11,220 nt of DNA from Escherichia coli (GTDB lineage: Bacteria > Pseudomonadota > Gammaproteobacteria > Enterobacterales > Enterobacteriaceae), in NCBI RefSeq assembly GCF_003334765.1, contig NZ_QOWT01000057.1; one strand, 5' to 3'. How positions within the stretch are numbered: the first letter of the stretch is position 1; every line of letters starts with the position of its first letter. Below the pieces are notes generated by a model. It worked only from the letters and a program-made list of their open reading frames with translations. It made no database searches and was not told the DNA's origin. The position numbers and the translations under genes were made by a program. This document shows, piece by piece, positions 3,062 through 4,291 of the stretch.

Positions 3062-3790
3062 TAATTCTTACTGGTTAATGATTAACAATATGAATCATTA
3101 CATACGCCTGTTGTATATATTTTAGCCTCTCTTTTACCAAACATAAGAAAACTAAACAGGTGGCACCGCCCCTGCTGGCCCGACAGAGAAAATATCTCCT
3201 TATCACTGCTGCATGAGTGGTACAAATCAGAAAAAAAACTCTCAGTGATACGACTGGCTGAACTCCGTGTAAAAATGCATTGTGTACGATTTACGAAAAA
3301 CACACTGCCACACATCTGGAATTTACAATGTCCGGAGAGTGTGGAGAAACGAATAAAGACAGTTACGGGGCAAGAGTTGCATACAGTCGCCTCTTCTGTA
3401 AAACTCCACACACTGGAACAGAGAAGGTTCTGGTAAACATCCATCCCGGATACACATATCCACCATGCTATGGAAATCAGGATATTACCGTGCACTGAAT
3501 AAAATAATATTGCATGAATATTCAGGGCCGTCAGGATTCGTTCAACAAAGCACAGGGGCAGATAGATTATCTATACTGATTTAACAGTATAAATAATTCT
3601 TTCACCATCTTGTCAGCGATGAACATTTATGTTCTTTTATTTGAAGGAATCTGCTCTTACTCTCTGCCGGGCCGCCTCACTCATACAGATATCAGGCAGT
3701 CATAGATTGTTGTGAAAAGTAGATATTTACCGGATGACTGATGCACTTTTATATAAAGGCAGAATGTTTCAGTATATGGAAAATGATTAA

Positions 3791-4291
3791 ATGGAAAACA
3801 TACACTCATTAGAGAAGATAATCAAATATCAACAAAACAAAGATCCCCTGTATCCCTGTCAGGAACATCTTTTGATACAACTCTGTATCCGTGCAAACAA
3901 GAAAATACAGGATAATATATCGAGAATGCTGGGAGGATACGGAATAAATTACTCAACATATATGGTTCTCACCGTATTATCTACAGCAGATAATCATTGT
4001 CTTTCGCCTTCAGAGATCAGCAGAGAACTCCAGTTTACCAGAACAAACATTACCCGCATTACAGATTTTTTAGAAAAAGCCGGATATACAGAAAGAACTG
4101 ATAGCAAAGAGGACCGCCGTGCTAAAAAAATCAGTCTGACATCTGAAGGCCTGTCCTTTATTCAGGGCATTACCCTTACACAAAACCAGTACCTGAAAGA
4201 AATCTGGAGTCCTCTGACCTATGATGAACGTGAACTGTTTAAAGACATTAATCAAAAATTACTGACGCATTTTGCTGATGTACGTTCATAA
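3791..4291 (+). CDS. MarR-family winged-helix transcriptional regulator, 166 aa (possibly PapX/SfaX-like 17-18 kDa island regulator; unverified)
   Basis: Central wHTH-like segment LSPSEISRELQFTRTNITRITDFLEKAGYTERTDSKEDRRAKKISLTSEG has the MarR pattern (recognition helix followed by the DRR wing motif and an LT..G segment). AT-rich codon usage contrasts with the neighbouring genes. Preceded by about 690 bp of AT-rich non-coding DNA. First in-frame ATG after stop at 3788-3790. Confidence 0.7.
   Translation: MENIHSLEKIIKYQQNKDPLYPCQEHLLIQLCIRANKKIQDNISRMLGGYGINYSTYMVLTVLSTADNHCLSPSEISRELQFTRTNITRITDFLEKAGYTERTDSKEDRRAKKISLTSEGLSFIQGITLTQNQYLKEIWSPLTYDERELFKDINQKLLTHFADVRS

What the first reader, a model, noticed from the sequence alone, without database searches (positions are those of the whole stretch)
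3100..4291. Orphan island-borne MarR-family regulator with an unusually long AT-rich leader and a 13-bp perfect palindrome
The only apparently intact non-transposase gene in the island part of the window is a 166-aa MarR-type regulator wedged between IS remnants (the IS66 remnant starts 7 bp after its stop). About 690 bp upstream is non-coding and AT-rich, typical of xenogeneic-silencer-bound DNA, and contains ATAGATTATCTAT (3562-3574), a perfect palindrome of the kind MarR dimers bind. Small MarR-like proteins on ExPEC islands (PapX/SfaX/FocX) are known to cross-regulate core genes such as flhDC; I cannot confirm family membership from memory. A short upstream ORF (ATG 3777, 11 codons) overlaps the start in another frame.
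Basis: partly seen in the sequence, partly recalled or inferred. Interest (0 to 1): 0.4.

Follow-up and report, generated by a model that had tools for sequence, protein, structure and literature searches.

The report
Orphan PapX-family regulator gene
This is an intact but uncharacterised relative of PapX/SfaX/FocX, the small E. coli regulators that switch off flagella when fimbriae are made. It has been left without any fimbrial operon among insertion-sequence debris, so it is an ordinary new member of a known family; the 13-bp palindrome singled out upstream is no more than chance.

Summary
The ORF at 3791-4291 is real and intact (166 aa). It has the MarR fold and clearly belongs to the PapX/SfaX/FocX "X" family: 71-73% amino-acid identity to PapX, with an identical recognition helix. 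No fimbrial gene lies nearby, so it is an orphan.

DNA homology to papX/sfaX loci covers only the gene, about 200 bp upstream and 2-7 bp downstream. That upstream block carries the proximal promoter mapped by 5'RACE for papX/focX. In the window this is -35 TTGTCA at 3610-3615, a 19-bp spacer, -10 TTTTAT at 3635-3640 and a start-site equivalent at 3648. The inferred leader is therefore about 143 nt, not 690.

The distal part of the "leader" is a decayed ykgJ-family pseudogene (about 3078-3390) followed by 195 unassigned bp.

The palindrome at 3562-3574 exists. It is expected by chance (P about 0.19), lies outside the conserved block and is not conserved in relatives.

dN/dS of 0.15-0.36 and repeated retention of promoter plus gene in other orphan loci argue that the gene is functional. 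A host-proxy genome has intact flhDC and an exact copy of the 29-bp PapX site.

The most likely role is a stand-alone flhDC repressor. That role is inferred, not shown.

Verdict: new member of a known kind, low interest.

The parts
2572..2990 (-). IS3-family transposase remnant (orfA part; frameshifted and truncated). It bounds the locus on the left. By eye its outer end is near 3060 (TG...CA-type end); this was not verified.
   Evidence: ORF 2673-2990. RefSeq annotation in the identical locus of strain 746 (window = L001 - 8901). NCBIfam transpos_IS3, E=1e-11.
3078..3390 (+). Decayed ykgJ-family (cysteine-cluster protein) pseudogene with internal stops and a frameshift. The N-terminal Cys cluster is lost. 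It makes up the distal 'leader'.
   Evidence: blastn 70% identity to ykgJ-family genes over 3183-3338. tblastn with the RM10466 YkgJ-family protein gives two HSPs, 3132-3233 and 3262-3384, in different frames, E=3e-13. The extension to the ATG at 3078 is by eye.
3391..3584 (.). Unassigned DNA (41% GC), found only in the ~31 genomes that carry this locus.
   Evidence: The palindrome is not conserved in relatives.
3585..3790 (+). Upstream block shared with papX/sfaX/focX-type loci, holding the promoter and 5'UTR.
   Evidence: megablast/blastn homology starts at 3585-3622. Alignments A2 and A3.
3610..3640 (+). Equivalent of the papX/focX proximal sigma-70 promoter: -35 TTGTCA 3610-3615, 19-bp spacer 3616-3634, -10 TTTTAT 3635-3640. 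The spacer holds a perfect 6+2+6 palindrome, GAACATTTATGTTC (3621-3634).
   Evidence: PMC6246914 section 9 reports the TSS at an A 144 bp upstream of the 166-aa ATG, with a 19-bp spacer. L002 9066 is A, with TTTTAT 7 nt upstream. Conservation. Palindrome listed.
3648..3790 (+). Inferred 5'UTR (143 nt) from the papX-type start-site equivalent (A3648). No significant RNA structure.
   Evidence: Homology mapping. Fold z-score 0.17. RNAalifold covariation term +0.72. No Rfam match.
3776..3790 (+). Mini-ORF ATG GAA AAT GAT TAA whose stop abuts the main start codon. It lies in the most conserved non-coding stretch of the whole family. A second uORF of 9 codons starts at 3783 in another frame.
3791..4291 (+). 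X-family (PapX/SfaX/FocX-like) MarR-fold transcriptional regulator, 166 aa, intact. RefSeq WP_001301088.1.
4299..5452 (+). 5'-truncated IS66-family element: TnpB-like fragment 4299-4379, TnpB 4376-4726, transposase fragment 4757-5452. It bounds the locus on the right.
   Evidence: RefSeq annotation of the identical locus, coordinate mapping, NCBIfam IS66_TnpB and transpos_IS66.

Best explanation
The gene encodes a stand-alone member of the PapX/SfaX/FocX 'X' family. These are 166-aa MarR-fold winged-helix regulators that normally sit at the 3' end of pap, sfa or foc fimbrial operons.

What survives here is the minimal self-sufficient unit: the family's own proximal sigma-70 promoter, a 5'UTR of about 143 nt, and the coding sequence. 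It is cut off from any fimbrial operon and flanked by an IS3-family remnant plus a ykgJ-like pseudogene on one side and a truncated IS66 element on the other.

Shown:
- family membership
- intactness of the ORF
- purifying selection
- conservation of the promoter
- absence of fimbrial genes nearby
- an exact PapX operator in the flhDC promoter of a genome carrying the identical locus

Inferred:
- The protein dimerises, binds the 29-bp PapX site about 410 bp upstream of flhD, and lowers flhDC transcription and motility, as PapX and FocX do.
- Because it can only be transcribed from its proximal promoter, its level is set by that promoter (possibly H-NS and auto- or cross-repression) rather than by fimbrial phase variation.
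For: Family membership:
- Pfam MarR, E=3e-10.
- AF2 model (pLDDT 80.5) matches MarR/UrtR-type structures such as MftR, PecS and HucR.
- 71-73% amino-acid identity to CFT073 PapX and to a pap-linked X protein over all 166 residues without gaps.
- The recognition helix LQFTRTNITRITDFLEKAGY is identical to PapX. The wing differs at one residue (DSKEDRRAKKISLT vs PapX DSREDRRAKKISLT); its EDRRAKKISLT core is identical.
- About 80% DNA identity to papX/sfaX loci over the gene plus about 200 bp upstream.

Promoter:
- The -35, 19-bp spacer and -10 of the RACE-mapped papX/focX proximal promoter are conserved.

Functional constraint:
- dN/dS is 0.15-0.36 against eight relatives.
- The exact protein is seen on 1000 or more contigs.
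- It is intact in the strain 746 and strain ST3 loci inspected here (same WP_001301088.1 protein). Searches list all hits covering 100% of the query as a MarR family regulator.
- It is the only X-type match in nearly all of those genomes.

Recurrence:
- Other IS-flanked orphans keep the same promoter-plus-gene unit: CE0026f and strain 11, and M15 and AR_0014, where an IS3 sits about 15 bp upstream of the -35.

Target:
- Strain 746 carries a 100% identical locus. It has intact flhDC, mot and che genes, no IS in the uspC-flhD spacer, and the 29-bp PapX site with 0 mismatches.
- That promoter segment is present in 5405 of 5426 genomes.

Literature:
- PapX and FocX repress flhD through this site, and EC958 papX mutants are hypermotile (PMC6246914, PMC5425062).
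Against: - There are no expression, binding or phenotype data for this clade.
- 27-29% of residues differ from PapX, mostly in the N- and C-terminal (dimerisation) helices.
- Family resemblance does not guarantee the function. VatX (44% identity to PapX) does not affect motility, and a focX deletion has no motility phenotype (PMC6246914).
- The locus is an IS hot spot, and the gene has been deleted in a close relative, TUM9803, so it is dispensable.
- The 29-bp site sequence comes from my memory of Reiss & Mobley 2011. The paper could not be opened; only its position was checked against PMC6246914.
Confidence: 0.6

Rival explanations
1. Neutral relic. The X gene is simply the last piece left of a fimbrial island that IS elements have eaten away. 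It is silent or irrelevant in its present host.
For: It is surrounded by pseudogenes and IS debris. It was lost through IS3 in TUM9803. IS100 and ISEc38 have inserted right after the stop codon in other strains. Only 31 of 5426 complete genomes carry the full locus.
Against: The ORF and promoter are intact while the neighbouring ykgJ-like gene has decayed completely. dN/dS is 0.25 against the sister orphan clade. The same promoter-plus-gene unit has been retained independently in at least three other orphan loci.
Confidence: 0.2
2. A regulator with a different or wider regulon than flhDC. Candidates are type 1 fimbriae, clyA (anti-H-NS, SlyA-like activation), or neighbouring island genes such as the malX-like cluster.
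For: SfaX over-production activates clyA, and the family is described as SlyA-like (PMC4164713). The clade is 27-29% diverged from PapX. In this host there is no fimbrial operon to coordinate with.
Against: The DNA-reading helix is identical to that of PapX and the wing differs at one residue, which predicts the same operator specificity. The PapX operator is present in a carrier genome. This rival is not exclusive of the best explanation.
Confidence: 0.15
3. The 13-bp palindrome at 3562-3574 is the protein's own operator within a long H-NS-bound leader.
For: The palindrome exists. It lies 36-48 bp upstream of the -35 and is part of a longer imperfect inverted repeat, 3566-3578/3585-3597. MarR proteins bind palindromes.
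Against: P is about 0.19 by chance. It lies outside the block conserved among X loci, and the aligned bases in pap, sfa and the sister orphan are not palindromic. It bears no resemblance to the PapX site core. Most of the 'leader' is a pseudogene. The H-NS motif is not enriched.
Confidence: 0.07
4. An MprA/EmrR-type drug-responsive efflux regulator.
For: The best NCBIfam model is MprA (125.5 bits, E=1.7e-36). One source names the protein 'MarR family transcriptional repressor of emrRAB'.
Against: The score is below the curated cut-off of 157. No emrAB-like genes are adjacent. Identity to PapX/SfaX is far higher.
Confidence: 0.02

Closest known systems
PapX (CFT073 pap1 operon) and FocX (F1C operon)
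   Same: 166-aa MarR-fold protein with 71% identity. The recognition helix is identical to PapX and the wing differs at one residue. Residue 97 is A as in PapX and residue 103 is T as in FocX. The proximal promoter has the same -35, 19-bp spacer and -10, and the 5'UTR is about 143-144 nt. The flhD operator is present in a carrier genome.
   Different: It is not attached to any fimbrial operon, so there can be no read-through transcription from a fimbrial promoter. 27-29% of residues differ. The promoter-spacer palindrome is perfect here (6/6 arm pairs) but only 4/6 in pap.
SfaX(II) of the S-fimbrial operon (IHE3034)
   Same: Same family and same length. sfaX has a proximal promoter of its own, reported to be H-NS-repressed (cited in PMC6246914).
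   Different: sfaX follows sfaY, an EAL-domain gene. No EAL gene is present here. The reported sfaX start site lies 44 bp downstream of the papX/focX one.
Other orphan X genes: WP_001066241.1 (CE0026f, strain 11) and WP_001447126.1 (M15, AR_0014)
   Same: IS-flanked, with no fimbrial operon, and the same retained promoter-plus-gene unit. WP_001066241 is the nearest relative found in another locus (81% amino-acid identity) and also has a perfect spacer palindrome (AAACATTTATGTTT).
   Different: They sit at different chromosomal sites with different flanks. WP_001447126 is a recent papX-type orphan, with a PapG remnant still present in M15.
VatX (CFT073) and UrtR-type MarR proteins (HucR, PecS, MftR)
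   Same: MarR fold with an extra N-terminal helix. These are the best structural matches.
   Different: Only about 20% identity to the UrtR proteins. VatX is 44% identical to PapX and has no motility effect (PMC6246914). No urate-type ligand is implied.

Membership tests
MarR family | Winged helix-turn-helix domain recognised by the family profiles | tested here: met
   Pfam PF01047 E=2.9e-10 and PF12802 E=3e-10 over residues 50-111. 47 PDB MarR chains at E<=1e-3.
MarR family | Fold: helices plus a beta-wing, with N- and C-terminal helices forming the dimer interface | tested here: met
   AF2 model pLDDT 80.5 with helices and strands at 100-102 and 114-116. Foldseek top hits are all MarR-family structures, probability 1.00. 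Dimerisation itself was not modelled.
MarR family | Binds a palindromic operator, commonly overlapping its own promoter | tested here: inconclusive
A perfect 6+2+6 palindrome lies in the promoter spacer (3621-3634), with a compensatory outer pair in the sister clade. It is imperfect in pap and there are no binding data.
PapX/SfaX/FocX 'X' family | A MarR-like protein of about 17 kDa / 166 aa, closely related in sequence to PapX | tested here: met
   71-73% identity over the full length without gaps. The family clusters are named SfaX/PapX. About 80% DNA identity.
PapX/SfaX/FocX 'X' family | Encoded as the 3'-terminal gene of a chaperone-usher fimbrial operon (pap, sfa, foc, prs) | tested here: not met
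   No fimbrial gene is present in the window or within 12 kb either side in the identical locus of strain 746. Homology to pap stops about 90 bp downstream of papG.
PapX/SfaX/FocX 'X' family | Own proximal sigma-70 promoter upstream of the X gene | tested here: met
   -35 TTGTCA, 19-bp spacer and -10 TTTTAT are conserved with the RACE-mapped papX/focX promoter. Activity in this locus was not tested.
PapX/SfaX/FocX 'X' family | Binds the 29-bp site in the flhDC promoter and represses motility | not testable with these tools
   Prerequisites are met: the recognition helix is identical to PapX and the wing differs at one residue, and the site is present with 0 mismatches in carrier strain 746.
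MprA/EmrR equivalog | Score at or above the curated NCBIfam cut-off, and linkage to emrAB | tested here: not met
   125.5 bits against a cut-off of 157. No emrAB genes nearby.

The most novel reading that the evidence does not exclude
The promoter-plus-gene unit (about -206 to +7, 0.7 kb) may be a self-contained regulatory module kept by selection after its fimbrial operon is lost.

In this lineage it is the only X-family match found in nearly all carrier genomes. It would therefore have turned from a fimbria-coupled motility brake into an independently controlled one.

The perfect palindrome in the promoter spacer (GAACATTTATGTTC; AAACATTTATGTTT in the sister orphan clade) could be the auto-operator that Luterbach & Mobley looked for but did not find.

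The family-wide conserved mini-ORF abutting the start codon could couple translation of a gene that lacks a good Shine-Dalgarno sequence.
Probability: 0.2. Interest if true: 0.4.

Novelty: new member of a known kind. Interest (0 to 1): 0.2.

Why it matters
The X proteins are the known link between adhesion and motility in extraintestinal E. coli. Virulence-gene typing usually counts papX or sfaX as markers of fimbrial operons.

This locus shows that a diverged X gene (RefSeq names it only "MarR family transcriptional regulator") can persist with its own promoter where no fimbrial operon exists, and similar orphans recur elsewhere. If it is active, some strains would carry a motility repressor that fimbrial genotyping does not predict.

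The practical consequences are modest:
- better annotation of this protein
- a caution for virulence-factor scoring
- a clean natural system for studying the proximal X promoter without read-through from a fimbrial operon

Tried and rejected
1. Structured or riboswitch-like 5'UTR. The MFE z-score is 0.17, RNAalifold gives an unfavourable covariation term on five sequences, and there is no Rfam hit in the window. Rejected.

2. H-NS high-affinity motif TCGATAAATT. There are 8 matches with up to 2 mismatches against 10.8 expected, and none lies in the leader. Uninformative.

3. PapX-site-like sequence upstream of the gene. Only a 3-mismatch match to the 15-bp core was found, at 3585-3599 (2 matches in the window against 0.29 expected; 7 of 200 shuffles reach 2). 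It is weak and not conserved in pap. This agrees with PMC6246914, which also found none.

4. An 11-mer, ACATTTATGTT, is shared by the X promoter spacer and the flhD promoter of strain 746. The longest-shared-word test gives P(>=11) = 0.12. Compatible with chance.

5. Repeats flanking the X module that would suggest a mobile cassette. Nothing convincing was found.

6. Metagenome contig L010 (P0032, 87% identity) has an upstream region identical to the window, next to IS3 and the core genes pgaA and a GGDEF-domain gene. It is probably an assembly joined through IS3, so it was not used as independent evidence.

7. A generic sigma-70 scan (16-18 bp spacers) finds no + strand promoter upstream of the gene. 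The family promoter has a 19-bp spacer and is seen only by homology.

8. Reiss & Mobley 2011 (PMC3247938) could not be opened, and a full-text search for the 29-bp site sequence found no paper.

Full report
**Observation**

The window holds an uninterrupted 166-codon ORF at 3791-4291 on the + strand.
- Pfam places residues 50-111 in MarR (PF01047, E=2.9e-10) and MarR_2.
- The best NCBIfam model is MprA, but at 125.5 bits it is below the curated cut-off of 157. The protein is therefore not an MprA equivalog.
- The palindrome ATAGATTATCTAT is at 3562-3574, and its arms are exactly six bases.
- GC content is 40% for 3100-3790 and 38% for the gene, against 50% for the window.
- Homology to other loci ends at 4293-4298. 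The identical locus in RefSeq annotates an IS66-type fragment from the base that corresponds to 4299.
- There is no ATG at 3777. ATG 3776 opens a four-codon ORF (MEND) in the same frame as the gene, and its TAA (3788-3790) abuts the start codon. ATG 3783 opens a nine-codon ORF in another frame.

**Family**

A megablast of 3100-4300 against 5426 complete E. coli genomes gave two classes of hit.
- The whole stretch is present in 31 genomes, at about 99.8% identity or higher in all listed hits.
- Only the part from 3585-3622 to 4293-4298 is present in about 1360 others, at about 80-85% identity. There it is annotated papX, sfaX or "MarR family transcriptional regulator".

The protein aligns without gaps to the 166-aa form of CFT073 PapX (71% identity), to a pap-linked X protein (73%) and to another orphan, WP_001066241 of strain CE0026f (81%).

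The recognition helix LQFTRTNITRITDFLEKAGY is identical to that of PapX. The wing differs at one residue (DSKEDRRAKKISLT here, DSREDRRAKKISLT in PapX), so the EDRRAKKISLT core is identical. Residues 70-118 are 43/49 identical, whereas the N- and C-terminal thirds are 31/47 and 28/46.

A search of 5.8 billion proteins found only E. coli relatives. They fall into several 90% clusters: this one, the CE0026f type, the large PapX/SfaX/FocX clusters, and rarer ones at 50-70% identity.

The exact protein is on at least 1000 contigs and carries only generic names. No paper in the library mentions it.

An AlphaFold2 model (pLDDT 80.5) has the MarR helix-and-wing layout plus an extra N-terminal helix. 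Its best PDB matches are UrtR-type MarR proteins such as MftR, PecS and HucR. No member of the X family has a solved structure.

**Start codon**

RefSeq annotates PapX as 183 aa, but Luterbach & Mobley number the 166-aa form. Their T35, A97 and M103 fit only that form. In the window the upstream extension is impossible, because a 1-nt indel and the TAA at 3788 close it. The start at 3791 is therefore the only possible start here.

**The "leader"**

The 690 bp upstream are a mosaic.
- Bases 3183-3338 are 70% identical to ykgJ-family genes.
- tblastn with a YkgJ-family protein gives two HSPs in different frames, 3132-3233 and 3262-3384, with stop codons inside (combined E=3e-13).
- Reading back to the ATG at 3078 gives a nearly full-length but thoroughly decayed gene whose N-terminal cysteine cluster is gone.
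- Bases 3391-3584 match nothing outside the 31 carrier genomes.
- Only 3585-3790 is shared with other X loci.

**Promoter**

Luterbach & Mobley mapped the papX and focX start site by 5'RACE. It is an adenosine 144 bp upstream of the ATG, with -10 and -35 boxes separated by 19 bp. The sfaX start site lies 44 bp further downstream, and sfaX is reported to be down-regulated by H-NS (PMC6246914).

In CFT073 the base 144 bp upstream of the 166-aa ATG is an A, preceded by TTTTAT-N7. TTGTCA lies 19 bp further upstream.

The window has the same elements:
- TTGTCA at 3610-3615
- a 19-bp spacer
- TTTTAT at 3635-3640
- an A at 3648

The inferred 5'UTR is thus 143 nt.

The generic promoter scan misses this promoter because it allows only 16-18 bp spacers. 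The UTR shows no sign of conserved RNA structure.

**The palindromes**

A 6+1+6 palindrome is expected 0.22 times in 691 bp of this composition (P about 0.19). With loops of 0-4 nt, P is about 0.59, and the window contains 14 such palindromes.

The aligned bases in pap, sfa and the sister orphan clade are not palindromic.

A second perfect palindrome, GAACATTTATGTTC (3621-3634), lies in the promoter spacer.
- Its core, CATTTATGTT, is invariant in the window, CE0026f and pap/sfa-type loci compared. The pap-like P0047 locus differs in it (AAATTATGTT).
- The sister orphan clade has AAACATTTATGTTT, a compensatory change of the outer pair.
- pap, sfa and foc have only four of six arm pairs.

This is a reasonable operator candidate for the auto- or cross-repression postulated in PMC6246914. 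It rests on a single covarying pair and no binding data.

**Context**

In strain 746 the locus is 99.9% identical to the window apart from an IS100 at 4296-4298. There the X gene lies between an IS3-family remnant and IS66 debris. The surrounding region contains:
- a P4-type integrase
- a phosphoethanolamine-transferase fragment
- a frameshifted IS3-family element
- beyond the IS66 remnant, a MalX-like PTS gene, a PatB/MalY-like gene and a 637-aa unknown

No fimbrial gene lies within 12 kb on either side.

In nearly all carrier genomes listed this is the only X-type match. The flank is unstable. ISEc38 follows the stop codon in strain ST3. In TUM9803 an IS3 has removed everything from 3458 onward.

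**Is it a live gene?**

- dN/dS against eight relatives is 0.15-0.36.
- ORF and promoter are intact while the adjacent ykgJ-like gene is destroyed.
- The same unit has survived independently elsewhere. In M15 and AR_0014 an IS3 sits about 15 bp upstream of the -35 of a papX-type gene, and M15 still has a PapG fragment. In CE0026f and strain 11 the sister clade sits among IS66, IS3 and IS256 remnants.
- Other family members follow a papG-like gene, sfaY, or an EAL-domain gene next to type IV pilus genes.

**Mechanism**

PapX and FocX repress flhD through a 29-bp site centred about 410 bp upstream of the flhD start codon. Over-expression abolishes motility only when that site is intact (PMC6246914). 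EC958 papX transposon mutants are hypermotile (PMC5425062).

I recalled the site as TTACGGTGAGTTATTTTAACTGTGCGCAA, from the abstract of Reiss & Mobley 2011. The paper itself could not be opened.

In carrier strain 746:
- flhDC, motAB and the che genes are intact.
- The 780-bp uspC-flhD spacer has no IS.
- The sequence occurs once, with no mismatch, centred 411 bp upstream of the older GTG start codon.

The surrounding 71 bp are present in 5405 of 5426 genomes.

With a DNA-reading surface nearly identical to that of PapX (recognition helix identical, one wing substitution) and an intact target, repression of flhDC is the most economical prediction.

What differs from PapX is the input. Transcription can come only from the proximal promoter, not from a phase-variable fimbrial promoter.

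Cautions:
- VatX (44% identical to PapX) has no motility effect.
- A focX deletion is silent.
- SfaX also activates clyA (PMC6246914, PMC4164713).

**Verdict**

The locus is an uncharacterised orphan clade of the known PapX/SfaX/FocX family, with the family's own promoter.

The long leader and the 13-bp palindrome are not features of interest. The finding is a new member of a known kind, and its interest is low.

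Noticed in passing
window 3760-3793; also L002, L003, L005, L008, L014-L016 just upstream of the X start codons: The last ~30 nt before the start codon (TTTCAGT-ATATGGAAAATGATTAAATG) are the most conserved non-coding bases across the whole X family, even in members that share no promoter. They form a mini-ORF that ends at or overlaps the main ATG. In pap/sfa the same bases are read through in frame, giving the RefSeq 183-aa PapX. 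This may reflect translational coupling, or it may explain the start-codon ambiguity.
   Followed up: partly
window 3621-3634: A perfect 6+2+6 palindrome, GAACATTTATGTTC, lies in the 19-bp spacer of the X proximal promoter. The sister orphan clade has AAACATTTATGTTT (compensatory outer pair). pap, sfa and foc have 4 of 6 arm pairs. It is a candidate auto- or cross-repression operator.
   Followed up: partly
window 5545-5703 (+) and 10646-11047 (-): Directly after the IS66 remnant lies a fragment encoding only residues ~202-253 of RsmI. At the right end of the window is a KbaY C-terminal remnant. From my memory of the K-12 map, agaBCDI and the yraHIJK fimbrial operon lie between kbaY and rsmI. 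Here that interval holds a MalX-like PTS IIBC, a PatB/MalY-like lyase and a 637-aa protein with no NCBIfam hit.
   Followed up: no
window 5872-7785 (-): A 637-aa ORF with a signal-peptide-like N-terminus has no NCBIfam family and is annotated 'hypothetical protein' in RefSeq. It appears co-oriented in one cluster with the malX-like and patB-like genes.
   Followed up: no
window 4296-4298; L001 13199-15154; L018; L019: The bases just after the X stop codon are an IS hot spot. IS100 is inserted there in strain 746 and ISEc38 follows the gene in strain ST3. In TUM9803 an IS3 has deleted the X gene, and a tRNA-Ser flanks the same integrase.
   Followed up: partly
window 986-2513 (+) and 832-921 (-): There is a frameshifted IS3-family element with internal stops, and a 90-bp fragment of a phosphoethanolamine-transferase gene next to the integrase. 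The same transferase gene is intact in a pheV island that carries a pap operon with an X gene (L004).
   Followed up: no
L015 2985-4501: An X-family gene (68% identical) follows an EAL-domain gene next to PilS/shufflon type IV pilus genes. This echoes the sfaY-sfaX pair but is attached to a different adhesin system.
   Followed up: no
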